DNA of 63,763 bases, filler included, from Folioceros fuciformis (taxonomy: Eukaryota): NCBI GenBank assembly GCA_049999805.1. It is 25 parts of 25 records of this genome, joined end to end, with 100 filler letters (N's around TTAATTAATTAA, not from the genome) between each part and the next. Parts side by side here need not be neighbours in the genome. Positions count along the whole stretch, not along the records: positions 41,091 to 49,476 come from JBNGIO010007038.1; 24 more parts are not named here. One strand, written 5' to 3'. The notes under the pieces are model-generated. The model did no database searches. It saw only the letters and a program-made list of their open reading frames with translations, and had not been told where the DNA came from. A program made the translations under genes and the position numbers. Below, one piece after another: positions 7,209 through 53,684 of the stretch. How positions within the stretch are numbered: the first letter of the stretch is position 1; each line of letters opens with the position of its first letter.

Positions 7209-9297
7209 ATGGTGCCCTCTAAGAGCTCACTCCTGCCTGAAGCATGGGGCCTGATGGCGGTGCTCGTGGGGATCATCAGCTGGGGATCGGCAGCCCCGAT
7301 GCCTGCTCCGGACTTCGCTCTGTGCCAGCCGGGGTACTTCTACCCGCTGAATGTTTCTGTGGAATGCTGCCCTGTGCTGCCCCAGAGAAAGGTGAAATCT
7401 TTTACCTTCGAGGAATACGGAGGGAAGCAGAGGAGACTCCGAGTGCGCAGGCCCGCGCATCGCCTGGACGCAGCGTACTGGGAGAAGTACAACCGAGCCT
7501 ACCAGCTGCTGCAGGAGCTGCCGGACGACGACCCTCGCTCACACGTGCAGCAGAGATTCGTCCACTGCGCGTACTGCGATGCCACCTTCCCAATGCCTTG
7601 GGGCAGCGGGGATCCGACCACCCCGTTCGTGAATCCCACTGCCCTGTATCCCAACGAGACTCTGCAAGTGCACTACGGCTGGCTCCTGTTCCCCTGGCAC
7701 CGCTGGTTCCTCTACTTCCACGAGAGAATACTCGCATCTTTGCTGGGGGATGAGGATTTTGCTCTCCCCTTCTGGAACTGGGACAACCAGAATGTGGAGC
7801 CCGGGTTTCACTGGGCTCCCAGTATGATGCCACAAGGATACGTGTCCGGGGAGTATCCCTTCCTGGCCAAGGCCAACCGCAGCGAAATGCACCAGCCGCC
7901 GGCTGTGGTGGACCTGAGGTTCAATCCCTTCCATGTGCAGCTGCCTTTGCCTGCGCTCTCAGATGATGAAATTCGGGAAAGCAACCTTGCCATACTGCAT
8001 CAGGTAGAATGACTTGGAAGGAATGTGTGCTGGTATGTCACATGGTTGCGGATGCTTTCTGAGACGCTGTCTGTTGCGATTGTTGGATGTGGTTCAGGCC
8101 TTTGTGAATGGAGCCACCACGGCGGATCTCTTCCTAGGAAGGCCCGTTCGAGCAGGAGATGCGACGCGGGACATCAGCTCAGGAGGGCAGGGGCTGCCCG
8201 AGGCTGGGCCACATGACGTTGTTCATCTGTGGACGGGCAGCGAGAAAGTCAGATATTTGGCGGACATGGGTACCTTCTTCTACTCGGCAAGAGATCCCAT
8301 GTTCTTCGCCCATCACGGCAACCTGGACCGCATCTGGAATGTGTGGAAGGAGCTGGGAGGGTGGAGGCGAGACCCCGAAGATCCCGACTTTCTCCAAACC
8401 GAATTCGTTTTCTACGACGAGAACAAGGACCTGGTGAAGGTGCGAGTTGGCGACGGCCTTGATACCTGGAAGCTCGGCTACACCTACGAGGAGGTGCAGA
8501 ATCATGCATACCATTCCAGTCTCCGTCCTTGATAAATCTCAGTCTGCAGCAGAGGTGCCATAAATGCTATAATTCCTTCCATCATTCCCCAGACCCCAAT
8601 TTGAAGAGCCAGGCTGCAGGTCGCTGACGGAGATGCCCGGTGGATTTCCTTCAACGCCACTCCTTGCTCCGATTTCAAGACGCCCCGACAGAAGGAGGAG
8701 TTCGTTGACAGCCTGCCTGAATGGAAAGACGTGAAGAAGCAGGACAAGCACCGAGGGCGGACTAGCTACTGGAGCGAGGTTCCCCTGACCGTGAGAGTGA
8801 AGAGGCCAAAGCGAAGACACCGCAGTGAGACCAAGACTTCTCTCTCCCACACTAGCAGAGCCATTGAAGTCGCTTCCTGCAATCGCTTGAGCTAACCTGG
8901 TCTCACATGTTGCGAACCACGGCTGCCACCTGCAGGTGAAATCAAAGACGAAGCGTTGATACTGGAAGGAGTTCAAGTGGACTGGAGCAAGGCCGCTCAC
9001 TTCCAGGTGTTCCTCATGCTGGCAAACGCGAGCTCCAGCGCCGATTGTAGGGTGACTTGTGCTGAGTTCACTGGCCTGTTCACCACTGTGCCCCGCACGA
9101 TGTACCAGGAGTTGTATCGCCACAAGAGAGTCACCTTCAAGCTGGGAATCGGGAACAAACTAAAGCAGCTGGCTGCCACCCACCTCTCACAAGTTGCGGT
9201 CACCATTCTTCCAGGACGACAGCACTACAGCTCCTTCCGAGATGCATCCCCGCTGAGAATCAGCAGAATCAAGATCCGGCATGAAACGTTGTCGTGA
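7209..9297 (+). CDS. PPO: Polyphenol oxidase (type-3 copper, tyrosinase/catechol oxidase); 4 exons, signal-peptide type
   Basis: Exons ~7209-8003, 8098-8493, 8620-8824 and 8936-9297. CuA: HCAYC...QVHYGWLLFPWHRWFLYFHERIL. CuB: EAGPHDVVH...RDPMFFAHHGNLDRIW. DWL-like region (DPDFLQTEFVFYDEN) and KFDV-like region (AHFQVFL). Hydrophobic N-terminus. Confidence 0.93.
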
Positions 9298-12227: not shown

Positions 12228-13112
12228 TTCCGAGACGAGTACGCGCTGAATTACCTGATCGGGACGCTGCGGAAGGCGCATGTGGCGCTGCTGAACGGGA
12301 TCGTAATGGGCGGGGGCAACGGGCTGTCCATGCTGGGGAGCTTTAGGGTGGCGACGGAGAAGACGGTATTCGCCATGCCGGAGACCGCACTGGGGCTCCA
12401 CCCGGACGTGGGGGCGAGCTACTTCCTCTCAAGGCTCCCGGGGCATTTCGCGGAGTACCTGGGGCTGACGGGGGATCGGCTGGACGGAGCGGATTTGCTG
12501 CACTGCGGGCTGGCCACGCACTTCGTGCCGTCTCAGCGGCTGCCGTGGCTGGAGGAGAGGCTAGGAGGGTTAGAGAGGGTGGACGCGGACGTGTTGAGTA
12601 CGGCCATCAATGAGTTTTGCGATGCAGTGTTCGTCGGGCTGCAGAGCCCGTGGCATCTGGTGCGGCGGGAGACCATCAACCGGTGCTTCTCGAAGGGGAG
12701 CATGGAGGAGATTCTGGCTGCGTTGGAAGGGGAGGCCCAGGAGCGTGGCGGGGGGGACGAGTGGTTGCAGTCCACCATCGCGAAGCTTCGGAAGGCCTCC
12801 CCTACCAGCCTGAAGGTCACTCTGAGGTCCATCCGGGAAGGGAGGCAGCAGTCGCTGCATCAGTGCCTGGCAAAGGAGTTCCGTCTGAGCTCCCGATTCA
12901 TGGAGGGGAAGGTGTCATCGGACTTCTACGAGGGCTGTAGGGCCATCTTGGTGGACAAGGACAACGCTCCCAAATGGGAGCCCAGCAGACTGGAGGACGT
13001 GACCGAGGACGCTGTAAACGCGTTTTTCCTTCCCCTGGAAAAGGAGCTGGAGCTGCCAGTGGAGGAGCGGGAACCGCAGTTTGTGGCTGGTCAGAGAAAG
13101 TCACGCCTGTGA
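12228..13112 (+). CDS. CHY1: 3-hydroxyisobutyryl-CoA hydrolase (CHY1-like, crotonase fold), peroxisomal; 5'-partial, no introns in visible part
   Basis: FRDEYALNYLIG...NGIVMGGGNG, TVFAMPETALGLHPDVGASYFLSRLPG, ASPTSLKVTLRSIREGR and DFYEGCRAILVDKDNAPKW. C-terminal PTS1 -SRL. Confidence 0.9.
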   Translation, partial: FRDEYALNYLIGTLRKAHVALLNGIVMGGGNGLSMLGSFRVATEKTVFAMPETALGLHPDVGASYFLSRLPGHFAEYLGLTGDRLDGADLLHCGLATHFVPSQRLPWLEERLGGLERVDADVLSTAINEFCDAVFVGLQSPWHLVRRETINRCFSKGSMEEILAALEGEAQERGGGDEWLQSTIAKLRKASPTSLKVTLRSIREGRQQSLHQCLAKEFRLSSRFMEGKVSSDFYEGCRAILVDKDNAPKWEPSRLEDVTEDAVNAFFLPLEKELELPVEEREPQFVAGQRKSRL

Positions 13113-16126: not shown

Positions 16127-16212
16127 TGCCTCATATGGTCAATGCCTCATAGGGTCAATGCCTCATAAGGTCAATGCCTCTTAGGGTCAATGCCTCATAG
16201 GGTCAATGCCTC
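16127..16212. repeat. 16-bp tandem repeat (ATAGGGTCAATGCCTC), ~5 copies, truncated by the contig end
   Basis: 16-bp periodicity read directly from the sequence. Confidence 0.9.
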
Positions 16213-16521
16213 GCACTATGCCTATTACTTAGGCTCAGCCAAGTAGTATCCATTTAGTGTTAAAAGTCTTAGAAGCATCTGCTCCTTGCTCCTCGTTTTG
16301 CACCTTATAACCCTAGTAATAGTGCACCCTATCATAATCCAACATTTTCTCCACAAAAAAAAGGCTTGGCCTTTTACATTGCAACCAACCAAGTTGCAAG
16401 AGTAGACAAAAGGTGCAAGGGCAAAGTATGACGAATTCTCTATTTATCTGTGTGACGCTGTGCATTTCTCATTGAGAAACTTAAGATAAAGGTTTTAGGG
16501 CACTCACTAAAACCAATGGAT

Positions 16522-16578
16522 GGGTTTAGGGTTTAGGGTTTAGGGTTTAGGGGTTAGGGGTAAACCCTAAACCCTAAA
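16522..16578. repeat. Interstitial plant telomeric repeats in inverted arrangement: (TTTAGGG)n followed by (CCCTAAA)n
   Basis: GGGTTTAGGGTTTAGGGTTTAGGGTTTAGGGGTTAGGGG directly followed by TAAACCCTAAACCCTAAA. Confidence 0.9.
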
Positions 16579-16764
16579 GAAAGAAAAATAATAAACGACA
16601 ATACATCTTCATATATTTTATGAATTTTATAAAACTTGAAATAATAATAATACAAGAAGAAAAAAAAACTTACGATCGACTGTTTACATTCGTCTATCTA
16701 AAGAAGTACATGAGTTTAAGCTATATATGTATGAGAGGACCCTTAGTTCATTTCAACACCACAA

Positions 16765-17915
16765 ATGTTTGATGTGAGGAACATTATGGCTAAGAAAACT
16801 ATGGATGAGATTTTCCCCCTACAGGAAATACTTGGGTATACTTTCCAAGATGCGGTTCTTGTGCATAGAACTTTCTATGAACCACAGAACCGAGACAATA
16901 CCAAGGTACGTTAGTATTTGTCACTTTCATTTGTGACATCATTATTATTATATTACTCTTGAAGCACTTATGTCTTTGAATGATTGCAGTTGCTTAAGCG
17001 ATTTGAGTTTGTGGGCGATTTCGTGTTGAGTTTCTTAATCTCTATATTCTTCTTCGATCAATTCCGTACTGAAGATTCTGGTGTGTTAACTGATATGCGA
17101 GCAGCAGCTGTGAATAATGGCCACTTGGCTACTCTTTGTGTGCAACAAGGTATTACTAGATGCTTTAAAGGTGTGCAAGCTTCAATGTGTTGCAAATTGC
17201 CTATTTGTTTGGAGTTATAATGAATGTATTAACGATCTTGACCATGCTACTGTTTTCTACATGTGTAGGTCTTGCTCAATGCTTTCGTCGTAGATTTCCA
17301 GATTATAATGGACTTGTGGAACAACTTTCTATTCCAGCACAAGATCCTGATGAGGCAAAAGATCATGTACCATGGGGCACAATGAAACGACAACATGTAT
17401 GTACTCTTTTGTTTCCTCTCATGATCTCACCTTGTATTATGGATGATGTATACGTATGTTCAAGTCATTCTTTAGAGTCTTAACATGGGTTCTGTATACA
17501 TATTGCTTGTTTAATTGCACGTAGCAGGTTTTCTAATATTTATTATTTTTTATGATATTTATAGATTTTTGCAAACTATTATGAAAGTATCATTGGAGTT
17601 GTATACATGGACAGTAACTACAACCTTGAAGAAGTGAAAAGGGTTATCAAACCACTTTACTCACGAATAGAGAAGTTCGATCCACGGAACTTGCCACAAA
17701 ATCCAGTTCGCAGGGCTCAAGAGATATGTCAACAAAAAGGTCTTTCGTTGCAGGTAGAGTTTGAACTTTTGGGTGATGGAACTACCAAGGCTAAAGGAAA
17801 AGTTGTGACAATGGATGACAATACCCACATTCTAATGCGTGAGGAATCTAATCCTCATATCGGTAAGAAAACAGCAAGGATAAATCTAGCGGAATGTATC
17901 CTACCAAAACTAAAG
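16765..17915 (+). CDS. RNase III domain + dsRNA-binding domain protein (RTL-like / Dicer C-terminus-like); 4 visible exons
   Basis: Exons 16765(or 16801)-16905, 16990-17149, 17269-17396 and 17565-17915. They give LQEILGYTFQD, KRFEFVGDFVL (RNase III signature), LTDMRAAAVNN, FANYYESIIGVVYMDS and the dsRBD NPVRRAQEICQQKGL...KKTARINLAECIL. Confidence 0.85.
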
Positions 17916-18330
17916 GTACTTGCATTTTTTTTATTTTTTAGGGTTTTATTTTTGTAGGGTTTTATCTTTTTAGGGTTTTATCTTTTTAGGGTTTTATGTN
18001 NNNNNNNNNNNNNNNNNNNNNNNNNNNNNNNNNNNNNNNNNNNTTAATTAATTAANNNNNNNNNNNNNNNNNNNNNNNNNNNNNNNNNNNNNNNNNNNNC
18101 TCGTCTGTGGAGTCCGCGGTTCGCTTCGCTGTCGTGGACCTGTTTGGTACTTGGTTGTTATCAATTCTGTCAGGTGTTAGGAAGGGACTGTCGATACTGT
18201 GCCTTTTGTGGTCGGGGAAAGCACGGGGTTTTTGGTCTTGCATTTTGGATCAGTTTTGAGGAATCAGTGGTTTTGGAGCCTTTCCGTCGTGGTTCTCTTG
18301 AGGTTGACCGCTGTGTTTGTCCCTTGGCAG

Positions 18331-30025: not shown

Positions 30026-31932
30026 CTCCCGCAGGAGCCAGAGGGAGAGCTCAAGGTGGACCTAACGGGACACAAAGAGGAAGTGAGCTTCTGAGGATGC
30101 CATGGCTGTGAGCTCTCTTTATAGGTGGGAGGGGGAGGAGAGGTGCTAGAGGTAGGGTGCGGGAGTCTGCAAGTACGGCCCTGTAACATCCATCTTCAGC
30201 TTCTGTTAATCATCACCTATCGCTATCATCATCACCAAAAACCTGGCGTGATATATTCCAGTCCGCCACTTTCTACGTGCATGTCCACGTGTCTGCAGGT
30301 GGTCACGAATAAAAAGTCAGGGAAAATGGCACTGAGCAACACATCACAGTGCACTTTGGAACCAGACTCCAAGTCGGCCGAAAGGAGAACGCGCATCCAT
30401 GGCGAGAAAAGTTGTAGTTACCTTGCCATGGGGGTAAGACGTGATCGTCCAAATATGCTTTTGACTCGTACCCAAGTGTGAGATCATGAAGCTTGCGCTC
30501 CACATGCAGATCCTCCGTTCCTCCACAAGATTTGAGCACAGCAGTAAAAAGAGGCTGAGGAATATGACAGCGTGCCTGCGTCCAGCTACCTTCCAGTATT
30601 CTTACCTTAAATTGCTGACATTGTTGCTCTCCGTTCCCGATGTTACGGCGCCCCCGGGATTACTTCGTATTTTGCAGGCTTGCCAGAATCCGGGGAGCTC
30701 GCCTTTTATTAAAACAAAGTAATAAGGTACACAAGGGCAGTCCTACCTCCTAGCAATCGCCCACAAGAAAGAAACACCTTGACTGCCGAGCTTCTGGAGA
30801 TCTCCTGGAGCTCTACACTCTGGTTCTGCTCCGGATCCAGATGCTGATTATGCATGTATGTGCCATGCATACACAATCAAGAGCTGAAACAGTAGCAAAA
30901 GCTTCGTCCTCGAGACGCCTAACCAGATACTCGCATCGAAAGACGCAGCTCCCCAGGGCATAGCCTCTATAACGTGGGCTGTTGTGTTGCCTCACCAGGC
31001 CGATGACGTGAAGGTGATGGGTGCAAGCGGCAGGCAGGGGATTAGCCGGGGGCACAGGTAAGGGAGCGTTGGAGGAGCCGCTTCAGCACACCCGTGTTCT
31101 GTACCACACCAGCAGCCAGCCTCATCGTCGCTACCACAGGCCTTCAAAAATGGCGAAGAAAAGGACGAGGGCGCTCCACACACCTTCAAAAATGCTCCAG
31201 GGCTTTCAGAACATCCCGGGACCTCATGCCCTGCACACGCGTGCGTATAAGGACACATTAGCCAAGCCAATGTGCTTACAAACCAAGCTTCTGGCATTCT
31301 CCAAGCAATTGCAAGCAAACAAGCAGACGGAATGGTGGGAGGTGCCAAGCTCCGCTTCGCTGTATTGTCCGCAAAACAAAACTGAGGAGCAAAGGGAATT
31401 TGCTTAGGTTTGTTAGCTTGGCGGCAGCGCAGCAATGTTCAGGTCGCCGTGATTGCAAACCCTGCGCCGTGTCCAGGTCAAGAGAGTGCCAAAAAAGCAG
31501 TGGAACACCGCAGCTGACGTTCTTGCCCACCCGCAACTCGTACCATGCCGGGACAGGGGCGAAGAGCCCACGAGGAGGCATGGTAGAGGAGGAATTGCGG
31601 GTGGACAAGAACGTGAGCTATGGATCTAGGAATTTCAAATGCTTAGGTAGGTGCCCGGGGGTCAAGAGCTCGGGCAAACGCAGGCAAGACCTGGGGCAAG
31701 GCATGGATAGGGGGTGCAAGAGCTCGAAAGAGGTGGGTTTAGGGTCAAGAACCCAGGCAAAGCAGGAGCTCGACCAGGGCCGTACTTGCAGACTCCCGCA
31801 CCCTACCTCTAGCACCTCTCCTCCCCCTCCCACCTATAAAGAGAGCTCACAGCCATGGCATCCTCAGAAGCTCACTTCCTCTTTGTGTCCCGTTAGGTCC
31901 ACCTTGAGCTCTCCCTCTGGCTCCTGCGGGAG
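30026..31932. repeat. Contig bounded by a perfect 158-bp inverted repeat (30026-30183 / 31775-31932)
   Basis: The two ends are exact reverse complements. Each arm contains CCTATAAA facing outward. Confidence 0.93.
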
Positions 31933-40990: not shown

Positions 40991-41758
40991 NNNNNNNNNN
41001 NNNNNNNNNNNNNNNNNNNNNNNNNNNNNNNNNNTTAATTAATTAANNNNNNNNNNNNNNNNNNNNNNNNNNNNNNNNNNNNNNNNNNNNTCATTGTGCA
41101 TATTTTCCCCTCTGACTTAGTAGATAGATTTGTCTCCTGTTTTTCCATGAAGTCTCCTCCTGGCTTTTTATCCAAGCCTCAATGAAGACGTTTCTAATAC
41201 CTAGTTAAAATCCAGAGTACATTACTACATGCTGAGGCATTTGCTACGAGTGAGAAATGGTCAGCTGTAGGGATTGAAGCACTGCAGCCCGAAATACCCA
41301 CCGCCCATAACAATGCAGCCCAAGAATGGGTGCCAATTCTCAACTCTGTGCAAGACCCCTGCAAAGACGATCACGTAAGGTTGAACGCTCACACTTTCGA
41401 GACAACAATCTGAATAATACACTTAAAAAAAAAATCTAGAATTCAGTTTTGAGATAATTCAGGTAACAGCCGTAACCAGTCGGTCCGGCGTTAAAAGGAG
41501 TGCTGCAACAGGTTACGAATACCGTGATCGTCGTTTTGTCCTCCATGAGCGAGGAAGTCTGTAAGTGACCAGGACATGCCACTGTTGCAGCACATGCACC
41601 CGTGCAACCATAACCTTCATGATCTCCAGCCTCAATTGTGAGAAGTATGTACCTGCGACAGTAACAAGAGTCAGTGCCAGGGAACTGCCCAGTGAGCAAG
41701 CCTCGGGCTGCTGTAGTTACAGAACATGCACAAAGCATTGCTTCTCACCATACCTTCA

Positions 41759-41897
41759 AATTTATCTGCTGCAGGCAGGTCTCGAGTTTGGTTCGGCAGT
41801 CCTTCCTTGAAGAAGATCAAACACCTCAAGTTCATCTGCTGCAGGCAGCTCTCGAGATGGGCTTGGCAGTCCGTCCTTGAAGAACATCAAATACCTA
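41759..41897. repeat. ~70-bp imperfect direct duplication downstream of the PPR gene
   Basis: ATCTGCTGCAGGCAG.TCTCGAG...GGCAGTCC.TCCTTGAAGAA.ATCAAA.ACCT occurs twice in tandem. Confidence 0.8.
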
Positions 41898-41964
41898 TGC
41901 GCGAGATACTCAAGTCACTTCAATGCGGGATTCCCCCATCTAGAAATGACTTCGCGCAGGGCTC

Positions 41965-44064
41965 TCAGTGTCGATCCCTACATGAACAAGAACCATCCAG
42001 GAATCGATGCACTCGATGTGCGTCTCTCACAATGACCTCTCTCTTCTCCAGACGTGACATGATCTTGGTGCTACTGTGGCAGTCATTGCACATGCGGAGA
42101 TTCTTAGTAACTAGCAAAGTTGTGCCATCTGGCGTGTTCATCAAACCAAACGCCAAAGCCAGTTTCTCCGCATGACCACACAGAGAGTCTTCCTTCTCTT
42201 GCTCAGACAATGACTTCAATACAAGCTGTACTTGTGGCACATGGCCTCCTTCCTCCTTCAACCTCGTATTCACACTCCTTAGCTTGGGGGAGATATCAGA
42301 TCTCTCTTCTCCCACAGTGAACTCGTGCACCTCATTCTTCACTTCGATGCAAGCCTTGGCAGGTTTTTTCGCAGCTCCTGCAGACTTTCTCAAGTTTTCT
42401 ATCCTGTCCACTTCATCCCACCTGCCTGCACTAGCATATATGTTTCCTAACAGCACATACGAACTTGCATTCCCAGGTTCCAATTGCACTACGTGGTCAA
42501 AGCATCGCTGTCCACGCTGTACATCACCATGGGTTTTGCAAGCACTCAGCAAAGCTTTCCAGCCCACAACATCGTTCTCAAATGAGGTACTTTGCAGCAT
42601 ACTTTCAGCTTCATCCAGACGGCCTGAGCGTCCAAGAAGATCCACCATGCAGCTATAGTGATGATCGGTGGGCACAATGCCATACTCTTCCACCATCAAC
42701 CTGAAGTACCGCTGGCCCTCATGCACCAGACCCGCATGGCTGCACGCCACAAAGAGGCAGATAAAAGTGGTATCATCTGGCAGAATGTTTTGCGCAAGCA
42801 TGTCTTCGAATAGCCGAATCGCCCTGTGACCCTCGCTATGTTCAGCATATCCATTCAGCATTGCCGTCCATGTCAACAAGTTCCTTGTCCGTAATCTATC
42901 AAATAACTTGCGGGCATCTTCTAGACTCCCGCATTTGGAGTACATATCCACCAGGCTGCTCCCGACACACACTTGGGACTCCAGACCTCGTTCACGAATC
43001 TCGGCATGAAGCTGTTTGCCCTGCTGCAGAGCTCCCACGCTCGCACACGCTTTCAAGAGGCACACAAATGTAACGTTATCTGCCGGAATCATGCCTTCCT
43101 GTTGCATACTTGCATACAAAGCGAGGGCATCCTGACCGAGCCCCTGCTCCATATACCCTGCGATCATGGCAGTCCATGTCACCACATCTCTCCTTCCCAG
43201 ACTCGTGAACACCATGCGTGCAGCCTCCAAATCCCCACACTTAGCATACATGGTCACTAGGCTGTTGGCAACGAACACATCCCCCTCCAGATCACTAGCC
43301 AAGACACGAGCATGCACCTCCTTACCAGACGCCAAATCCTGTGCTGCGGCACAAGCCTTCAAGACTGCCACAAATATCCTGTCATCTGGCCTAACTGCGG
43401 AATCCATCATCTGTCGATATAGCTGTATGGCCTGCGTAGCTTGCCCGTGCCGAGCATGCGCCAAAATAATGGTGGCCCACATATGGGGGTTGGGGGCAGT
43501 CACTTTGGCGAAGACCTGCACACAATCTGTCAGCTTGCCATGAGAAGCATACATGCCCATGATGTGGTTGGCCAGGAAGGCGTTAGACTCGTACCCGCTC
43601 TTCACAGCAAGGGCATGCACACGTGCTCCAAGAGTCAGATCATTGTACGTCATGCATCTCCTGAGACAAGTATAGAAGAAGGAGGTGTGGACATCTGGGG
43701 AACGCTGCACCAGACGCTCCAAGGCCTCCACAGCCTCCCTGAGCGGCAGAGTTTCAAACATGGAGACATAATTGGCTATGCCGGGGAGAGAGCCAATTCC
43801 GACGTCCATGGCCATCCGGCCAAAGTAGACATGTCTTTCGGCGAGCCGGTTGTCCCACCGTTGAGGAGGATGTTGGCAGGAGAGGTCCCGTCGCTCTTTC
43901 TCCGATGTCTGTGCAACCACGAGTGAGTTCCCTCCGAAACGCAGCCTGGCTCCTGGACTCCTGTGAACCCGGAATCCTGCCTGCTCTCCATGTACCCCAA
44001 GCCTGCACCGTACCGAGCATCGACAATCACACTGATGTGTCCACCTCGACTGCAGCCGCTCCAT
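41965..44064 (-). CDS. PLS-class PPR protein with E1-E2 and KP-type DYW domain ending in DRH (candidate U-to-C organellar RNA editing factor)
   Basis: Intronless; about 11 PLS motifs. KKPAKACIEV, HAEKLA, KNLRMCNDCH and C-terminus GSCSCRDRH*. Start is either ATG 44064 or ATG 43815. Confidence 0.93.
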   Translation of the reverse strand: MERLQSRWTHQCDCRCSVRCRLGVHGEQAGFRVHRSPGARLRFGGNSLVVAQTSEKERRDLSCQHPPQRWDNRLAERHVYFGRMAMDVGIGSLPGIANYVSMFETLPLREAVEALERLVQRSPDVHTSFFYTCLRRCMTYNDLTLGARVHALAVKSGYESNAFLANHIMGMYASHGKLTDCVQVFAKVTAPNPHMWATIILAHARHGQATQAIQLYRQMMDSAVRPDDRIFVAVLKACAAAQDLASGKEVHARVLASDLEGDVFVANSLVTMYAKCGDLEAARMVFTSLGRRDVVTWTAMIAGYMEQGLGQDALALYASMQQEGMIPADNVTFVCLLKACASVGALQQGKQLHAEIRERGLESQVCVGSSLVDMYSKCGSLEDARKLFDRLRTRNLLTWTAMLNGYAEHSEGHRAIRLFEDMLAQNILPDDTTFICLFVACSHAGLVHEGQRYFRLMVEEYGIVPTDHHYSCMVDLLGRSGRLDEAESMLQSTSFENDVVGWKALLSACKTHGDVQRGQRCFDHVVQLEPGNASSYVLLGNIYASAGRWDEVDRIENLRKSAGAAKKPAKACIEVKNEVHEFTVGEERSDISPKLRSVNTRLKEEGGHVPQVQLVLKSLSEQEKEDSLCGHAEKLALAFGLMNTPDGTTLLVTKNLRMCNDCHSSTKIMSRLEKREVIVRDAHRVHRFLDGSCSCRDRH

Positions 44065-45080
44065 ATTCTCGGACCGTGCCAATGAGCATCTGGCGAGCTA
44101 TAAGATGCAATAAACCCTTGCCAATCTGCGACCCCCTTGAAAATTTTAGTAGGAGCCGGAAGATCCGCAGTTTCGATATCGTATTGAACCCCAACGTCCA
44201 AGGTCTACTCATGATGAACACGGACAGCGAGCACGACAGAGTATGACTCTTATCTACATACTTGCATCTGAGCCAGAACCCCAGGGTTTCCACAAAGAGC
44301 AAGCTGAAAACGGTGCATTCAATGCTAACACAATGTGCTGATCGACTCTTTAGCACCTGTTCTGGCGCATTCTCGGTGTTAACCACAGAGCTGCCAGAAC
44401 GAACTGTCGCTGTGGCTGACATAGATCTCGTTCCTTCACTCTAATTCAATCTCCTCAGATTCCACATCCCACCGACATCTTTCGTTGATCTCATCAGCAA
44501 AAATGCTAGAAGCTACAGCATCAGGCTTTCCACCTTCCTCTTGCAATTGTCTGCAGTGCTTCTCTCCTATGAGCTTTGGTGTGCGTGTTTTCAATACATA
44601 GCTAGTGCACGTACTAATTGGTAGCGCAAGAGAATCTGTTATATACATTTCAAATACCATCGATGGAGTAATGTATTAAACAGTAGCGTGGTGAGCAAAT
44701 GAACCATTAACATGGGCGGCTGAGGTTGTTAAACGGCCCGTTTAGGCTATGGTGGCGCCCCTAACCGACACCTCAATTGCGCACAGCCGGGTAGTTTGAG
44801 GTGGTGGGAAATCATGCACGTTGCCACCGTTGATGCATGCTTGAAGTGGTCTCCTGCCCACATCGTTCCCAGTATGACAGATAACTCCTTCACCAAGAGG
44901 TCAAAAGAGAAGGGCAAGAGCCTGCAAACCATCTCACTTCCTCTCCGTACTCGCAAACCAACTCCTGGGGCTGCAAATCCGACTATTGGTGGATGAAGAC
45001 CACCACAGCAAAGTTAGCTCCACAGACTTAAGCTAGTGGAAAACAGGAAACAGAGATGAATCGTGATAAGTCACCACATG

Positions 45081-45902
45081 CTACACCAGCTGACTTCCCG
45101 AGAGTGTCGATGGAACGTTCATTCCCCAACTGTCCACTGAGGTGGCAGAAACCATACCAATTGCTGGAATTGAGGAATTTGAGACAGATTCTATCTCTAA
45201 AAATGGCATGTCAAAAGAGGTAGTCCGCTTCAAACTCAGCACAAATCCAATGGCAAGCCAACCCGCTAGACTGATAGCCCAGTAAATGCTGACGCCCCGG
45301 ATAAAGTTCCAGGCTATCAAATAACCAACTATAATCCCTGACAAGTGTCCCAAAAAGCTTGCTTGCGGCACGAAAATGGAGGTGAAAACCAGCGATTCGA
45401 AAGGTGCAAAACTGATGGGCAAAGAAAGCAGCCCGAATATGTCAAGTTTCGAAGAAGGCTGCTTGACAGCAAGAATGGTCATCCATCCAAATACCACGCA
45501 AGAGTATCCAACTGCTGTCACCCTCCGATACGAATCCAACTTTGCCCGGTGAATAAGAACATGGTACATGCCCAGCACTAGCAATCCCGAGAGAATTAGC
45601 AGCATAAGTGTGTATTGCATATAATATGCAACCCCTAAGCCATATTCTCCCTTGCTCTCCACCACTCCGAGACTCCACAAAGCACTCATGTTGAAGATGA
45701 GATGCAGGAAACTGATGTGGGAAAACGCATGGGTGAGAAGCCGCCAGTGCTGCCCATCTGTGATGACTGCATCATAGATCAACCCCACATCACCATAGCT
45801 CACGTTCTTCTGCTGAATATAAACCCATACTGAGCTACAGATTCCTATAAGAATGCTGGTCGCTGGCTTCTCTACGATATCGTATATGAGAAGCCGCCCC
45901 AT
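45081..45902 (-). CDS. RBL13: Rhomboid-like protein 13
   Basis: [37 protein letters not shown], catalytic VGYSCVVFG and SFLGHLSGI. Single exon. Confidence 0.92.
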
Positions 45903-46829
45903 AGAACTATGCCGTATGTTCGAGAAAATTTCAGGATGCGCTCGAAGATATCAACGGCAAATTCTAACGACTGCTGAATCTGCTGTCCAAAAGGGGGAAG
46001 AGCAGCAAAATGGGTGCAAGCCACGATCCCCCAACCCGGAGCTGCATCCTTGGATTCGCCATCCCCAAGCCCGTGATGTCTGATGATGACGGCTACCTTC
46101 CATCTGCTCGCGTTCTTGGCACCTACACCTTCCACCAGGTACCTTGAACCCTATACATCTAACCACCTTCACCTCGTGCTTTCTGAGAATGCAATGCCAA
46201 ACCTTCTTGAAGAATGACCACCTAAAGAGCACAAACATGGCTATAATCACAACAAGAATACATGAACAGGTTCTGGAACTCAATGAACTCTAGGCCGCAA
46301 TTTGCATACCGCGCTACCTATACCTGAGAATTTGCAGCATGCTACCTTTCTGTTCTAAACCCACCACAAACCTAAATCGGAGAGGTAGCACCACTAAGGA
46401 AAGAGATTATGCATGCTCAGCGCAAAAGAGACCTACCCTTTTGTTGTTGATTTACCTCCGGTGCAGGAGCACCGTGCTGGGAGCCCAGCCCTCCACTTAC
46501 AGTACCTTACAAGCATGAAGGTCTGCGGTATCCTTGTGTCGCTGCCTCTCTCCCTCCTCCTCCATCACGCGCCATTGGTTCGCAAACCCTACAAAATTTA
46601 CGTCTAGAGCCACGTGCCATAATTTCTGCCTGATGTCCACGAAGAGGCGCGTCGTTTGGCGACCGGATTTATAGCTCCTGTGAGCATAAGAAGGTTGTGG
46701 ACTCATCAGTAGGTGAGGTGCAGCAGTACTTCTTTCCGCCATTCAACGATCACCACCCAGGAGGGTGATCGATATGTCCCGGTAAGCGATGATCCAATAC
46801 TGTGGCGGGCGGTTCGTTTTTTGAGTAGT

Positions 46830-48965
46830 ATGGCTCGATTCCTTGCAGCTGCTGGTGCACGGCCCTCCACAGGCAGCTTCCTTGCCCTGTCCCCGCCTGT
46901 CCGAACTGCGGCCCCACGAACTGCCTGCGTGCTTCGTTCAGAGTGGGTTGGTCACGGCCAAGGCACTCTGCATTTTGCATTGCGTAACACAACGGCGGAC
47001 TGTCGGCGGCCGGGTATATCAAGATTGCCGCATTTGGGGCTGCGGCTGCCCTTCCACCGTGTGCGGCGTGGAGGGGGAGTCAGAAATGCGGGTACAGCTA
47101 CGCAAGCCGGAGGTGGGGCAGGTGTGCTTCGAGACTCCAAGACCAAGGTGCAACCGAGATCTGTAGGCAATGCTAGAAAGGACAAGGATCTCAAAAAGGG
47201 ATCGCAGCCCAAGTACACTAAAGCAGCCCGTCGGTTCTACAATGAGAATTTCAGGGAACCTCAGCGGCTTGGTAAAGCTCTGGCAGCAGCTGGAGGTAAT
47301 CCCTTCATCGCCACCGGTTTCGTTGTTCTTCACGGATGTTCTCCAACGGTAACTTGACCTGAGAACGAAATGCAGTGGCTTCGAGAAGGGCTAGTGAAGA
47401 GCTCATTTTTGAGGGCCGTGTAACGGTGAATGGGAATGTCTGTAAGCTTCCCCAGGTATCTCACTTTCAGCGGACTCTTTCGTGGGGTTGTGAAAGTTCA
47501 TGGTCTGTTGATACATACATCTGTATCTCAGACCATGATACTCAGGCATGGAATGATCAGGTAACATGCCTTCTGACGATACTGGAATCAGACAACAGTG
47601 AATCCTCTGAAAGACGTCATCTACGTTGATGGGAACTCTTTGCCGAAGAAGATGGCACCTAAGATGTACTTTGCACTAAACAAGCCAAAGGGGTACGCGT
47701 ATATGCTTCTCACAGTCAGGAAATCTGCTGGTCACTCGGTTCATCATGCCTTCTCAGATGCAGGATGTGTAGGTGACCATTGGACACACTCTCTCGGCAT
47801 GTACTATTTTGCAGCTACATCTGCTCAAATGACACAGCCGACTCCAAGCCGGTGCTCTCTCTCTTTGAAGAGTATTTTCGGATTTGGGTATGTGACGAGT
47901 TAGATGCTTCTCGCCTGACGCCAGTTAGTGGAAGGGGTGACAAATTGAAGTGATGCATGGGCTTTCTTCTCAGGCTCAAAGAAATCCTGGACTGCCAAAA
48001 CCTCGTCTTTTCACATCGGGCCGTCTTGATGTGGCTACGTCTGGTTTGCTTATTGTGACCAATGATGGTGAGTGTGTTCCTACGTGCAGGAATCATTTCG
48101 TACATCGTGTGAAATGTTATCCTTTTACCTCCATTCAGCTTATGATTTAGAGGTAAAATTCTGCAGGAGAGTTCGCAAACAAGGTTTCTCATCCGTCCTC
48201 TGGGCTCACGAAAGAGTAAGATGATCTCACAGACTTCCATTCTATTTCACAATGTTATGGAAGAACAAGCTCTACTTTCGAGGATTGGCCTGATAAGCGT
48301 GGTGTTGGTCAGGTACATTGTGACTACAAACAGTAAGGTGAGCAAACGGCAGCTTCAAACAATTGCGGAGGGAACTCTGGTCCAGGATGTGATGTGCACT
48401 CCAGTTTCTGTTGCTGTGCTTGAAGGACATTCTGGGCAACGACTTCGCATTGTTGTACGTTTGGCATGTCTTAGTCTCCAATGCCCACATGCCATAACTG
48501 CTGCTCTTCTGTGCCAGTACTAAGTTACAATCTTCTCAACAGGTGTCTGAAGGGCGAAATCACGAAGTCCGTCATCTTGTGGAAAATGCAGGCTTGAAAG
48601 TTAGAGTCCTGGCGAATTTGCATACGGCTTTTCCCTTAAGCCCGCGTTTGAATCCTTAAATGAATAAGTGTTATCACATTTGTATCTGGCAGGTTGAGGC
48701 GTTGAAGCGTGTACGTGTCGGCGGACTTCGTCTTTCCCGAAAACTGGGGTAGGTTTGAGCCAGTTAGAATCGCCAGGACAGGAGGCAGCATCAGATCAGC
48801 AAATTGACGGGTTCGAGCATGCTTTTTTTCTGCCTTGCCTCAATGCTGTGTCATGTTGCTACGTGCAGAGTCGGGAAGTTTGAGGAGCTGACTGAAAGCC
48901 AAGCCAAGAAGGTACTCGACAAGAATGTCCAAGCCCAGGCATCTCAAGTGCCGCCCTTGGTTTAA
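46830..48965 (+). CDS. SVR1: Chloroplast rRNA pseudouridine synthase (RsuA/RluB family, SVR1-like), multi-exon
   Basis: Transit-peptide-like N-terminus. S4 domain PQRLGKALAAAGVASRRASEELIFEGRVTVNG, YFALNKPKGYICS, catalytic GRLDVATSGLLIVTNDG, and EGRNHEVR. TAA at 48963-48965. Confidence 0.9.
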
Positions 48966-49277
48966 CATCATGTGTTGGTGACTTAAGACTCCCTTTTGAG
49001 GGAAAGCGAGAAGACTTGAGCCGCATGGTTCTGAATCCGCAGTGTGTCGTTTTAATTGTAAAATTCAATTTTAGGTCTTTTATAGATCTCCAGATTAAGG
49101 AAATTATTTCCTCTAGTCCTGCTGGGTCGGTCCTATTGTGCGAACTTCTGTGGTTGAAGAAAGTAACATTCGAATCGCTATAGCATGTTTAATATATGGT
49201 CGACCACATTTGCCTCACAATTCATTTGCGTTGTCCTCCGGGACACGGGAGTTCTTTGTTTGCGGAGGTGCACCAGG

Positions 49278-49470
49278 ATGGTGCTGCTGTCGTCGAACGA
49301 GGGCATTGAGGACAAGGCATTTTTGGTGACAGGAGGAGCTGGATTCGTGGGCGCGGCCCTTTGTCTGGAACTTGTCCGCCGGGGTGCTTCAAAGGTTACG
49401 TCCCTGGACTTGTCCAAGACCTCGTCTTGGCTTCCTAAGCTTCGTGCTCACGGCGTGGTGTGCATCACCG
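49278..49470 (+). CDS. SDR42E1-like / 3-beta-hydroxysteroid dehydrogenase family, first exon
   Basis: MVLLSSNEGIEDKAFLVTGGAGFVGAALCLELVRRGA (Rossmann TGGxGxxG motif), followed by a GT donor. Confidence 0.85.
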
Positions 49471-49869
49471 GTAATGNNNNNNNNNNNNNNNNNNNNNNNN
49501 NNNNNNNNNNNNNNNNNNNNTTAATTAATTAANNNNNNNNNNNNNNNNNNNNNNNNNNNNNNNNNNNNNNNNNNNNCTTAAAGTCCTTACTACTTGCTCA
49601 AGGTTTAGATCATCAAAAGAAAAATGATTACAAGTCAAGTCTCACTACAAAACTATGCAAAAGGGTTAAAAACGATCAAAATGAATCTTTTATACATAAT
49701 AAAATCCAAAAGAAGTAAAAATAAGAAAGAAAACCTATAAAACCTTGAAGCCATGGCGGGCACAAGTGCACGCAATTGCCTAAAAAAACGGGATTTTCAG
49801 GTTTTCGGTATTTTTTAGGATTTTTTTGACTAGTATGTGCTTAAAATATGTGTTAGCTATTTAATCAAG

Positions 49870-51810: not shown

Positions 51811-52718
51811 ACTGAAAGTGAGCTTAAGGGTGGATAAGCCACGAAAAACAATTAACCTTTAAACCAATTAGTTTAGGATAAAGCTATTCAAATATCGACA
51901 ACTAGTAAATGCTAAATGGTAATTAGTAAACACCAAACGATAACTAGAGGACAAAAATCAAGGCATGCTTGCAGCTGCTTTATTGAAGCCCGTGGGCTCA
52001 CATCGAGAATGTGAGCCTACCCGGATGGTTATGACTCAAAGAGGCAAGCCCCGCACCAGAATCGCCAACACCAACCATGGCTGCCATACTAAACCCTGAA
52101 GATGGAGACAAAGGCGATATGTCGTTAAAGTTGCACCGAGGGAGAGTGCCCGTTGCTATCTTAGAAACTCAAGTACTTTCGTTTTTCCAGCTAGATATGG
52201 GCTTAAGGGTTGCAAGAATTGATGTTTATGTGTGTGGAGTGGAACTTGCATCCAAGAACCACCAAGGGCCACACTTCCCCTTGTTATCGTCGTAGTACTA
52301 GGATTCGCTCCCAAGGGAGNNNNNNNNNNNNNNNNNNNNNNNNNNNNNNNNNNNNNNNNNNNNTTAATTAATTAANNNNNNNNNNNNNNNNNNNNNNNNN
52401 NNNNNNNNNNNNNNNNNNNCATGTGTATACACGGGCAGTCAGTAAGGGAGCGAGACAAGACTCAAACCCAGCCCTAACAACCAGTTACGTGTTGTATGTC
52501 GTCTTAGATACTCGCAATTGGACGCGATTGGCTTAAGCTCGTCCGGTGATCCCGTGGCAAGAGGCGCATGGTTGCCACGGTAGTGGCTCATAAGGCGAGC
52601 AGCAGTACGGGCCAGTTTTCACACTCCACAGCATTAGCAGCAGCGGAGCCGAAAGCAGCAGAGCGAGCGACGAGGACGAAGAGGAGCAGGGCGCAGAAGA
52701 GCAGGCAGGCAGGCAGGG

Positions 52719-53684
52719 ATGGGGATCAAGGAGACGGAGGAAGGAGGGATGCGGGTTCTGCAACCCTCACGGCGGGCCGGGCTGCTCAGTGCAGTAGCTT
52801 TGCTGGTGTGGCTGGGGGGCATTCACCTGAATTTCGTAATCTTGTTGGTGGCGGTGGCGTACCTGCCCAGCGCCATGGGCTGGGCCATGCTGGCCCTGCT
52901 GGTGCTGCTCACGGTGGCGCCAATCGCCCCTGATTGGGAACCAGGACAGCGGCTTGCGCGCTTCATCAGCGACTACGCCCCCGCGCACTTCCCCATCAAG
53001 GTGGTGATGGAGGAGGAAGGCGCGTTCGACCCGTCCCGGGCGTACGTGATCGCGGCAGAGCCGCACAGCGTGCTGCCCATCGGGATCGTGGTCCTGACTT
53101 CGCACTCGGGCTTCCTCCCCTTCACCAACATCCGGTGCCTAGCTTCGTCCGCCGTCTTCTACACCCCGGTGGTCCGGCACGTGTGGTCGTGGCTGGGCCT
53201 GGTGCCCGCCACCAAATCCCACTTCCGCCGTCTCCTGTCCGCGGGCACGTCGTGCATCATAGTCCCCGGCGGAGTGCGCGAGTGCCTCTACATGGAGCGC
53301 GGCTACGAGGTGCTCTACCTCAAGCAGAGGTTCGGCTTCGTGCGCTTCGCCATCGAGACGGGCGCGCCCCTGGTGCCCGCCTTCTGCTTCGGCCAATCCA
53401 GCGTGTACCGGTGGTGGAAGCCCAGCGGGGCTCTGTACGACCGCCTGTCGCGCGCCATCGGCTTCACGCCCCTCATGTTCTGGGGCATCCTGGGCTCGCC
53501 CATCCCCTACCGCACTCCCATGTACTTCGTGGTCGGGAAGCCCATCCCCGTGGACAGGGTGGCTTCTCCGTCGCGCGACCAGGTGGCCGCCGTCCACCAG
53601 CAGTACCTCGAGGCCATTCGCCGTCTGTTTGACAAGTACAAGGCCACCGCTGGCCACCAGGACACGCAGCTCCACATTTACTGA
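52719..53684 (+). CDS. DGAT2: Diacylglycerol O-acyltransferase 2 (DAGAT family), intronless, complete
   Basis: Two N-terminal TM helices, EPHSVLP, IIVPGGVRE, RFGFVRFAIETGAPLVPAFCFGQ and VVGKPIPV. Confidence 0.92.
   Translation: MGIKETEEGGMRVLQPSRRAGLLSAVALLVWLGGIHLNFVILLVAVAYLPSAMGWAMLALLVLLTVAPIAPDWEPGQRLARFISDYAPAHFPIKVVMEEEGAFDPSRAYVIAAEPHSVLPIGIVVLTSHSGFLPFTNIRCLASSAVFYTPVVRHVWSWLGLVPATKSHFRRLLSAGTSCIIVPGGVRECLYMERGYEVLYLKQRFGFVRFAIETGAPLVPAFCFGQSSVYRWWKPSGALYDRLSRAIGFTPLMFWGILGSPIPYRTPMYFVVGKPIPVDRVASPSRDQVAAVHQQYLEAIRRLFDKYKATAGHQDTQLHIY

What the first reader, a model, noticed from the sequence alone, without database searches (positions are those of the whole stretch)
41965..44064. 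PPR protein with a KP/DRH-type deaminase domain: candidate reverse (U-to-C) RNA editing enzyme
Seen: an intact, intronless PLS-E1-E2-DYW gene whose domain departs from canonical C-to-U editors. It has KKPAKACIEV in place of the K.PG.SWIE box, a short segment after it, HAEKLA instead of HSEKLA, an intact CxxC (MCNDCH), and a C-terminal DRH instead of DYW. Known: this KP clade (DRH/GRP termini) is found in hornworts, ferns and some lycophytes, the lineages with U-to-C editing, and KP-type domains are implicated in U-to-C conversion. The chemistry and natural targets are poorly resolved. Inference: this is a natural U-to-C factor, or possibly a bidirectional one, and the host is most likely a hornwort. 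The class is already described; this member's target is probably not.
Basis: partly seen in the sequence, partly recalled or inferred. Interest (0 to 1): 0.8.

Follow-up and report, generated by a model that had tools for sequence, protein, structure and literature searches.

The report
Hornwort-type DYW:KP editing-factor gene
This is an intact, transcribed plant gene for an RNA-binding repeat protein whose enzyme domain belongs to the known variant class linked to "reverse" U-to-C editing of organelle RNA; it is an ordinary member of a large known family, and its target and actual activity remain untested.

Summary
Window 41965-44064 (minus strand) is an uninterrupted 699-codon ORF. It encodes a degenerate P motif, L1-S1, (P1-L1-S1)x2, P2-L2-S2, E1, E2 and a 133-residue DYW-type domain. 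The domain carries every DYW:KP signature. It has a KPAKAC box instead of PGxSW, lacks 4 residues where PG-type domains hold xHP, and has HAE, M92 and a DRH end. Both zinc sites, Glu67 and Lys88 are intact.

In ML trees the domain separates from canonical PG/DYW domains (100/99) and nests in a DRH/GRP clade (96/93). The split holds with the signature columns removed.

The window is 25 unrelated contigs joined by N linkers, so only 41091-49476 is true context. On that contig the neighbour's introns are spliced out in RNA-run contigs. The PPR ORF is covered by identical RNA contigs with no intron. A related organism holds a syntenic copy about 94% identical. The neighbouring RBL13 gene groups with bryophytes, not ferns, which fits a hornwort.

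Verdict: a new member of a known kind. U-to-C activity is inferred, not shown. The only DRH-based designer protein was not among the active ones. Interest is modest.

The parts
41965..44064 (-). Complete intronless coding sequence, 699 codons plus a TGA stop, of a PLS-E1-E2-DYW:KP pentatricopeptide repeat protein
43816..44064 (-). N-terminal 83 residues before the next Met residues (84, 86). Arginine-rich with net charge +8. Presumed organelle-targeting presequence (inferred, not predicted by a tool)
   Evidence: R+K 16, D+E 8; Met at 1, 84, 86, 102
42571..43779 (-). PPR tract, residues 96-498: degenerate P, L1-S1, (P1-L1-S1)x2, P2-L2-S2. The fifth/last residues of the P and S motifs are S1 N/N, P1 A/D, S1 N/D, P1 T/D, S1 S/N, P2 T/D, S2 S/D
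   Evidence: register against 9kfx_A and PLS9-PPR
42367..42570 (-). E1 (residues 499-532) and E2 (533-566) PPR-like motifs
   Evidence: (E_motif 4.2e-15)
41968..42366 (-). DYW:KP deaminase-like domain, 133 residues (567-699)
42340..42366 (-). KP box (KPAKACIEV, residues 567-575) in place of the PG box, followed by a stretch 4 residues shorter than in PG-type domains
42166..42174 (-). HAE (residues 631-633; domain H65, A66, E67): the zinc-binding His and catalytic Glu, with Ala where PG-type domains have Ser
42103..42105 (-). Lys88 of the domain (residue 654), the lysine shown to be essential for U-to-C activity in designer KP proteins
   Evidence: PMC11845758 passages. Invariant in 41 of 41 aligned rows
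42076..42090 (-). CNDCH (residues 659-663; domain C93, C96, H97), preceded by the KP-typical M92
41968..41976 (-). C-terminal DRH triplet in place of DYW
41756..41896 (-). 70-nt unit repeated 2.0 times (85% matches) in the 3' untranslated region, just after the stop codon
41751..44209 (-). Extent covered by identical contigs of the RNA run X3 (41751-42085, 42243-43182, 43165-44209, 0 differences). X3 depth falls to 2.1 in the bin 44171-44450 while the DNA run X1 stays at 11.8
   Evidence: tables 2 and 8

Best explanation
This is a nuclear gene of a land plant, most likely a hornwort. It encodes a site-specific organellar RNA editing factor of the PLS-E1-E2-DYW:KP class, DRH subtype.

Proposed mechanism, with each step marked:
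1. The arginine-rich N-terminus imports the protein into the mitochondrion or plastid (inferred).
2. The 11-12 PPR motifs bind a single-stranded RNA stretch, one motif per nucleotide, with S2 opposite position -4 from the edited base. The alignment rule is recalled knowledge. The code is taken from PMC12733224 section 2.2.
3. The P and S motifs read 5'-C(-13), U(-10), G(-9), A(-7), G(-6), G(-4)-3'. This is inferred from the fifth and last residues.
4. The C-terminal zinc-dependent deaminase-like domain then converts the target uridine into cytidine. By analogy with designer KP proteins, Lys88 attacks C4 of the uracil to form a Schiff-base intermediate.

Shown here: the gene is intact, it is transcribed without introns, it belongs to the KP clade, and all catalytic and zinc residues are conserved. 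Not shown: organelle import, the target site, and the direction of catalysis.
For: Architecture and motifs.

KP signatures at every diagnostic position:
- a KP box in place of the PG box
- the 4-residue gap at the xHP stretch
- HAE and M92
- a 133-residue domain with a DRH end

Clade membership:
- The split between PG and KP-plus-mixed rows is supported at 100/99 in the careful tree of 71 rows. The window lies in a 19-row DRH/GRP clade at 96/93.
- The quick tree of 97 rows gives 99.
- With signature columns removed, 114 columns are kept and support is 97.
- In the representative-based tree of 84 rows, the 11 HAE rows split from the other 73 at 97.

Fold: the AF2 model has pLDDT 90.7. Foldseek gives 9kfx_A at TMq 0.90 and rmsd 1.6, and then the OTP86 and DYW1 DYW domains. 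These chains are sequence relatives, so this is not independent evidence.

Residue conservation: H65, E67, K88, C93, C96, H97, H120, C127 and C129 are invariant in 41 of 41 aligned rows.

Expression and structure:
- Identical X3 RNA-run contigs cover the ORF.
- The neighbour's six GT..AG introns are spliced out only in X3 and X5.
- Intergenic depth in X3 drops to 2.1.

Conservation:
- Organism B holds a collinear RBL13-PPR arrangement.
- One of its RNA contigs spans 714 nt of the ORF with 40 substitutions and 0 gaps.

Literature:
- KP domains occur only in hornworts, lycophytes and ferns (PMC13386178 passages; PMC9478123 passages).
- Designer KP2, KP3 and KP6 perform U-to-C editing, and this needs HxE, CxxC and Lys88 (PMC9478123 section 7; PMC11845758 passages; PMC11332814 passages).
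Against: No activity or target was tested here or could be.
- The DRH-based designer KP1 was not among the 3 of 7 designs active in E. coli. No DRH-type domain has printed evidence of U-to-C activity in the papers I could search.
- At the eight positions where substitutions biased KP6, the window has four of five U-to-C-raising states (C6, T17, A116, V119; Q47 is neither state). It also has all three C-to-U-raising states (G64, V113, H133).
- Lys88 is also invariant in the 52 PG rows, so it does not discriminate between the classes.
- The PG rows in my trees are mostly seed-plant or unnamed. No PG-type domain known to come from a hornwort was available as a same-lineage control.
- No ortholog exists in the protein databases. 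The best identity over the PPR tract is 56%.
- The predicted RNA motif has only about six informative positions, too few to name a target.
Confidence: 0.7

Rival explanations
1. The protein is an active editing factor, but its DRH-type domain works as a C-to-U deaminase or in both directions. The KP signature alone does not fix the direction.
For: - KP6 edits in both directions in human cells, and single substitutions toward the KP consensus switch it (PMC11845758 section 5 and passages).
- The window domain carries G64, V113 and H133, the three states that pushed KP6 toward C-to-U. These are fixed or common in its clade: G64 in 22 of 22 rows, V113 in 22 of 22, H133 in 15 of 22.
- The DRH-based KP1 showed no U-to-C activity in E. 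coli.
Against: - The domain also carries C6, T17, A116 and V119, which pushed KP6 toward U-to-C.
- GRP-type KP2 and KP3, which lie inside the same DRH/GRP clade in my trees, edited U-to-C and showed no C-to-U activity in E. coli.
- KP proteins were reported to match U-to-C sites by the PPR code. I know this only as cited in PMC9478123; the original paper was not held.
Confidence: 0.17
2. The gene is a redundant or decaying paralog of a very large family. It is intact by chance and has no editing site that depends on it.
For: - The family is huge. Hundreds of partial paralog contigs pile up on the DYW region and on the S1/P1 junction in all four runs, with depth up to 3759.
- The first P motif is degenerate.
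- Q47 is a minority state in its clade, 2 of 22 rows.
- No ortholog was found in the protein databases.
Against: - The ORF is open for 699 codons with every catalytic and zinc residue kept.
- It is transcribed.
- A syntenic copy in organism B aligns over 714 nt with 40 substitutions and no gap. Of the 6 substitutions listed there, 4 fall on third codon positions by my count, which is a very small sample.
Confidence: 0.08
3. The protein is an RNA-binding factor without catalysis, for example a stabiliser or a helper that recruits another enzyme. The DYW:KP domain would serve only structurally.
For: Nothing specific to this gene. Catalytically inert or truncated PLS proteins that act with partner deaminases are known in seed plants (recalled, e.g. 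DYW1 as a trans-acting domain; 7w86 appears).
Against: All residues needed for catalysis are intact. The domain is complete at 133 residues and models with high confidence.
Confidence: 0.05

Closest known systems
Hornwort DYW:KP proteins of the DRH subtype (described by Gerke et al. 2020 and Gutmann et al. 2020 as cited in PMC9478123; the basis of designer KP1)
   Same: - PLS-E1-E2 architecture.
- KP box, missing xHP stretch, HAE, M92, 133-residue domain and DRH terminus.
- Clusters with other DRH-ended domains; the nearest is P0002 at 86% identity in the domain.
   Different: - It is a distinct paralog. The PPR tract is at most 56% identical to any database protein, so its RNA target should be its own.
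- Q47 is found where the clade mostly has E.
- No activity is known for any DRH-type protein. KP1 was not among the active designs.
Designer KP2 and KP3 (GRP type) and KP6 (fern type) U-to-C editors
   Same: - The catalytic set HxE, CxxC and Lys88 is the same.
- The overall design of three PLS triplets plus P2-L2-S2-E1-E2-DYW is nearly the same (PMC12733224 passages).
- GRP-ended domains nest within the same clade as the window.
   Different: - Those are consensus-designed proteins aimed at an Arabidopsis rpoA site. This is a natural gene.
- The terminus is DRH, not GRP or a fern-type end.
- Relative to KP6 it differs at all eight direction-biasing positions.
Canonical DYW:PG C-to-U editing factors (e.g. 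OTP86, DYW1, moss PPR56/65; synthetic PPR-DYW 9kfx)
   Same: - Same fold: 9kfx_A TMq 0.90; OTP86 and DYW1 hits.
- Same zinc ligands, Glu and Lys.
- Same PLS-E1-E2 RNA-binding scaffold.
   Different: - PG box replaced by a KP box.
- 4-residue deletion at the xHP stretch.
- Ser to Ala in HxE, and DYW replaced by DRH.
- Separated in the tree at 100/99.

Membership tests
PLS-class PPR editing factor (PLS-E1-E2-DYW architecture) | Alternating P, L and S motifs ending in P2-L2-S2 | tested here: met
   Parse. Alignment to synthetic PLS-DYW 9kfx_A (E 1.3e-215) and PLS9-PPR 5iww. Pfam PPR families.
PLS-class PPR editing factor (PLS-E1-E2-DYW architecture) | E1 and E2 motifs between S2 and the DYW domain | tested here: met
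   Pfam E_motif 4.2e-15, residues 512-573. Colinear with E1 and E2 of 9kfx_A.
DYW deaminase domain (PF14432) | HxE...CxxC catalytic zinc site and second zinc site (H, H, CxC) | tested here: met
   H65, E67, C93, C96, H97, H120, C127 and C129 are present and invariant in 41 of 41 rows. Pfam 1.4e-34 against a cutoff of 24 bits.
DYW deaminase domain (PF14432) | Cytidine-deaminase-like fold with the DYW-specific additions | tested here: met
   AF2 model pLDDT 90.7 and pTM 0.80. Foldseek gives 9kfx_A TMq 0.90, and 7o4e, 7o4f and 7w86 at E 1e-9 to 1e-10. This is a predicted model, and the hits are sequence relatives.
DYW:KP subgroup | Lys-Pro (KPAxA-type) box in place of the PG box | tested here: met
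   KPAKAC at domain positions 1-6. The clade has K1 in 20 of 22 rows, P2 in 19 of 22 and A3 in 19 of 22. PG rows have G3 in 44 of 52 and S5 in 46 of 52.
DYW:KP subgroup | Domain of 132-133 residues lacking the xHP stretch | tested here: met
   133 residues. 4-residue gap against PG chains. Criterion from PMC9478123 and PMC11845758 passages.
DYW:KP subgroup | HAE instead of HSE, and Met before the CxxC | tested here: met
   A66 and M92. PG rows have S66 in 52 of 52.
DYW:KP subgroup | Non-DYW terminus (DRH or GRP in hornworts) | tested here: met
   DRH.
DYW:KP subgroup | Phylogenetic placement with KP rather than PG domains | tested here: met
   Caveat: no PG domain known to come from a hornwort was in the sample.
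DYW:KP subgroup | Host belongs to hornworts, lycophytes or ferns | tested here: inconclusive
   Organism names were coded. In the neighbour RBL13 tree, the window plus one unnamed row (100/96) is sister to the moss clade (98/96), on the side holding liverworts and a lycophyte and away from ferns and seed plants (98/94). This is compatible with a hornwort, but it is a single gene.
DYW:KP subgroup | U-to-C editing activity dependent on HxE, CxxC and Lys88 | not testable with these tools
   The residues are present. Activity needs a bench assay.
DYW:KP subgroup | PPR code matches the sequence upstream of a U-to-C site in the host organelles | not testable with these tools
   No organelle genome or editome of the host was available (no tRNA or organelle contig in the window).

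The most novel reading that the evidence does not exclude
DRH-type KP domains, the commonest type among the window domain's close relatives sampled here, may not behave like the GRP-type and fern-type designer editors. They naturally combine the residues that pushed KP6 toward U-to-C (C6, T17, A116, V119) with those that pushed it toward C-to-U (G64, V113, H133), and the only DRH-based design was not among the active ones. This compact, expressed natural protein could therefore be bidirectional, or depend on a host cofactor or amine donor that the heterologous systems lack. Finding that factor would address the unresolved chemistry of U-to-C editing.
Probability: 0.15. Interest if true: 0.65.

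Novelty: new member of a known kind. Interest (0 to 1): 0.3.

Why it matters
U-to-C RNA editing is chemically unusual. In the papers I could search it has been shown only with consensus-designed KP proteins, and I found no natural KP factor paired with its site there. The two founding papers were not readable, and Gerke 2020 is cited as matching KP proteins to U-to-C sites by the PPR code.

This gene is a clean natural candidate for such a test:
- It is short, with three PLS triplets, like the designer scaffolds.
- It is intact and intronless.
- It is transcribed.
- A syntenic copy exists in a related organism.

It is also only one of very many similar paralogs, so its value is as a convenient test case rather than a discovery. 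The practical point for the scan is that the window is a concatenation of contigs, so gene-neighbourhood arguments must stay within 41091-49476.

Tried and rejected
- No whole genome is held for this window, so paralog counts and organelle sequences could not be taken from the genome.
- Earlier scan notes: nothing by place or by words.
- Gerke et al. 2020 is not held. I did not try Gutmann et al. 2020. Both are known to me only through citing passages. Their supplements, which list candidate factor-site pairs, may bear on the target.
- Ortholog search with the PPR tract (3681 proteins at E<=1e-30 among 8000 scored, 120 listed). Long repeat proteins dominate. A re-ranking by BLAST gave at most 56% identity. 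These are paralogs only.
- The look-up of sequencing runs listed no holder on record as RNA. X3 and X5 were flagged only as guessed RNA. I treat them as RNA because they alone carry the six GT..AG joints.
- Joints inside the ORF (e.g. 42130 to 43165, 42198 to 43091, 43071 to 43153) lack GT..AG, have sides of 21-40 nt, and occur in DNA runs too. I rejected them as introns. They are cross-matches among paralogous PPR repeats.
- The stretch 42086-42242 is not covered by a listed identical contig of X1 or X3 (table 8, which is truncated). I draw no conclusion from this.
- Retrogene hallmark: no A-rich tract after the 3' end was seen by eye.
- Organelle DNA among the other 24 contigs: no tRNA genes. 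The Pfam scan of 29 long ORFs shows nuclear-type plant genes and no second PPR-DYW gene.
- Target prediction: the code gives about six informative positions. By my rough estimate that would match tens of places in two organelle genomes by chance, so no target is proposed.
- Targeting prediction: no tool was available. Only composition was computed.
Full report
**What is there.** Window 41965-44064 on the minus strand is an open frame of 699 codons, from an ATG to a TGA stop. The stop-to-stop frame is only 11 codons longer. Pfam finds PPR families at E 1e-43 to 1e-44, the E motif at 4.2e-15, and the DYW deaminase family PF14432 at 1.4e-34 over 91 of 93 profile positions. A full-length comparison with solved structures aligns the protein colinearly with a synthetic PLS-type PPR-DYW editor (9kfx_A, E 1.3e-215) and fixes the repeat register.

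Counting motif lengths back from the C-terminus gives this layout:
- a degenerate P motif, residues 96-126
- L1-S1
- two P1-L1-S1 triplets
- P2-L2-S2
- E1 (499-532) and E2 (533-566)
- a 133-residue C-terminal domain (567-699)

The first 83 residues are arginine-rich (R+K 16, D+E 8) and precede the next methionines at 84 and 86. I read them as an organelle presequence, but no targeting predictor was available.

**The domain is KP-type.** They are diagnostic when compared with 22 rows of the nearest clade, 7 fern KP rows and 52 PG rows.
- The box reads KPAKAC where PG domains have xPGxSW.
- Alignments to PG-type chains open a 4-residue gap where these carry the xHP stretch. The domain is therefore 133 rather than 136 residues long.
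- The zinc site reads HAE. PG rows have S at that place in 52 of 52.
- Met precedes CNDCH.
- The protein ends in DRH.

These are the criteria given for DYW:KP in PMC9478123 (passages), PMC11332814 (passages) and PMC11845758 (passages). H65, E67, K88, C93, C96, H97, H120, C127 and C129 are invariant in 41 of 41 aligned rows. An AlphaFold2 model of E2 plus the domain has pLDDT 90.7. It superposes on 9kfx_A at TMq 0.90 and rmsd 1.6 A, and then on the OTP86 and DYW1 DYW domains. These are sequence relatives, so the fold match adds little independent weight.

**Phylogeny.** The C-terminal 200 residues found 309 proteins at E<=0.001 among 984 candidates, of which 120 were listed. With the query, that makes 121 domains: 43 with the KP signature, 75 with the PG signature and 3 mixed.
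- *Quick tree, 97 rows.* I dropped 3 partial domains and 21 near-duplicate PG rows. PG and KP-plus-mixed rows separate at SH-aLRT 99.
- *Signature columns removed.* Taking out the box, the indel region, the HxE middle residue, the Met and the last triplet still gave 97.
- *Careful tree, 71 rows* (42 KP, 3 mixed, 26 PG). The split has 100/99 support. The window lies in a 19-row clade of DRH- and GRP-ended domains (96/93) inside a 22-row clade (99/92).
- *Named fern domains.* The Adiantum and Ceratopteris domains form a separate KP clade at 98.
- *Exhaustive search of 1.84 billion representatives.* It found 2548 domains at E<=0.001, 1660 at E<=1e-10 and 47 at E<=1e-30. Among the best 150, 98 are HSE with a DYW-like end and 14 are HAE with another end. 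In a tree of 84 of them, the 11 HAE rows, the window among them, split from the other 73 at 97. A 51-row PG-dominated clade has 98.

One caveat remains: no PG domain known to come from a hornwort was available, so a lineage effect is not fully excluded.

**True context, expression and host.** The window is not one locus. Twenty-four linkers of 44 N, TTAATTAATTAA and 44 N join 25 contigs with GC from 0.32 to 0.61. The gene lies on the contig 41091-49476. That contig also holds three other genes:
- an RBL13-type rhomboid gene, 45081-45950 on the minus strand
- a multi-exon gene with an S4 domain on the plus strand
- the start of a 3-beta-HSD/epimerase-like gene

No whole genome is held, and run and organism names are coded. 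I laid four runs on the contig.
- X3 and X5 carry six GT..AG joints between 47691 and 48868. The DNA runs X1 and X4 lack them. So X3 and X5 contain RNA, and the contig is genomic.
- X3 contigs identical to the window cover 41751-42085, 42243-43182 and 43165-44209. No GT..AG joint falls in the ORF.
- X3 depth falls to 2.1 upstream of 44210 while X1 stays at 11.8.

The gene is therefore transcribed and intronless.

Organism B (X4, X5) holds the same RBL13-PPR arrangement. One of its RNA contigs covers 714 nt of the ORF with 40 substitutions and no gap. Depth spikes over the DYW region and the S1/P1 junction, with hundreds of partial contigs, show a very large paralog family in both organisms.

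The RBL13 protein is 64-69% identical to named orthologs from mosses, liverworts, a lycophyte, ferns and seed plants alike. In a careful 30-row tree:
- RBL13 pairs with one unnamed row (100/96).
- That pair is sister to the moss clade (98/96).
- It sits on the side of the tree that holds liverworts, away from ferns and seed plants (98/94).

[quoted passage not shown] Together with the tree, this makes a hornwort the most likely host, at about 0.85 in my estimate.

**How it most likely works.** The code in PMC12733224 (section 2.2) reads as follows:
- Asn at position 5 selects pyrimidines and Ser/Thr selects purines.
- A last-position Asp selects U or G, and Asn selects C or A.

With S2 placed opposite -4 (recalled rule, consistent with E1 at -3), the P and S motifs read C at -13, U at -10, G at -9, A at -7, G at -6 and G at -4. 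The A/D motif at -12 and the L motifs are uninformative. Six positions are too few to name a target without the host editome.

Catalysis is inferred from the designer proteins. U-to-C editing by KP2, KP3 and KP6 needs HxE and CxxC (PMC9478123 section 7) and Lys88 (PMC11845758). A Schiff base between the lysine and C4 of uracil has been proposed (PMC11332814).

**What tempers the inference.** Only 3 of 7 designs were active, and the DRH-based KP1 was not among them. In KP6, substitutions toward the KP consensus raised U-to-C in five cases (L6C, V17T, D47E, D116A, I119V) and raised C-to-U in three (E64G, L113V, F133H) (PMC11845758 section 5).

The window domain has C6, T17, A116 and V119, but also G64, V113 and H133, and it has Q at 47. 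These states are typical of its clade: G64 in 22 of 22 rows, V113 in 22 of 22, A116 in 19 of 22, V119 in 20 of 22, C6 in 14 of 22, T17 in 14 of 22 and H133 in 15 of 22. Only Q47 is rare, at 2 of 22. My position numbering is anchored on K88, M92 and the 133-residue length.

So the direction of catalysis of DRH-type domains is not settled by sequence. Three full-text searches found no paper that tests a natural KP protein. The library lacks many subscription papers, including the two founding studies.

**Verdict.** This is a new member of a known kind, one of many paralogs, with an unknown target and untested activity. It is a convenient natural test case for U-to-C editing, not a surprise.

Noticed in passing
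window 4310-62394 (24 linker sites, e.g. 40991-41090 and 49477-49576): The window is a concatenation of 25 separate contigs (1.2-8.4 kb, GC 0.32-0.61). They are joined by 44 N + TTAATTAATTAA + 44 N linkers, so adjacency across linkers is not genomic context.
   Followed up: yes
window 45081-45950 (-): Single-exon RHOMBOID-like protein 13 ortholog directly upstream of the PPR gene on the same strand (Pfam Rhomboid 2.6e-25). It is 64-69% identical to named land-plant orthologs and 80% to one unnamed protein. The adjacency is conserved in organism B.
   Followed up: yes
window ~46700-48900 (+): Multi-exon gene with an S4 RNA-binding domain (a pseudouridine-synthase-like reading by eye). Six GT..AG introns of 86-122 nt are confirmed by spliced RNA-run contigs (47691-47814, 47886-47973, 48066-48166, 48215-48313, 48454-48543, 48747-48868).
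   Followed up: partly
window 49167-49476 (+): First exon of a 3-beta-hydroxysteroid dehydrogenase / NAD-epimerase-like gene, cut off by the end of the contig.
   Followed up: no
window 41756-41896: A 70-nt unit repeated 2.0 times (85% matches) in the 3' untranslated region of the PPR gene. Its significance is unknown.
   Followed up: partly
window 30026-31932: This contig has perfect 158-nt terminal inverted repeats (30026-30183 and 31775-31932). It is either a fold-back assembly artefact or a terminal-inverted-repeat element.
   Followed up: partly
window 16127-17999: A low-GC contig (0.37) that begins and ends in short tandem repeats. The end reads as a repeated unit of about 16 nt that contains TTTAGGG.
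   Followed up: no
window 12228-13109 (+) and 52638-53681 (+): Long uninterrupted ORFs on high-GC contigs (0.59-0.61): an ECH_2 enoyl-CoA hydratase-like ORF (1e-99) and a DAGAT diacylglycerol acyltransferase (4.6e-59). Their composition differs from the PPR contig. Whether they come from the same organism was not checked.
   Followed up: no
window 7089-8529 (+): A plant-type polyphenol oxidase (Tyrosinase plus PPO1_DWL domains) split over two adjoining frames. This suggests an intron or a frame shift.
   Followed up: no
window 41931-42210 and 43051-43330: Hundreds of partial contigs from all four runs pile up here, with summed depth up to 3759. Loose ends cluster at 43153 and 43187-43191. These nucleotide stretches are shared by a very large PLS/DYW paralog family in organisms A and B.
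   Followed up: partly
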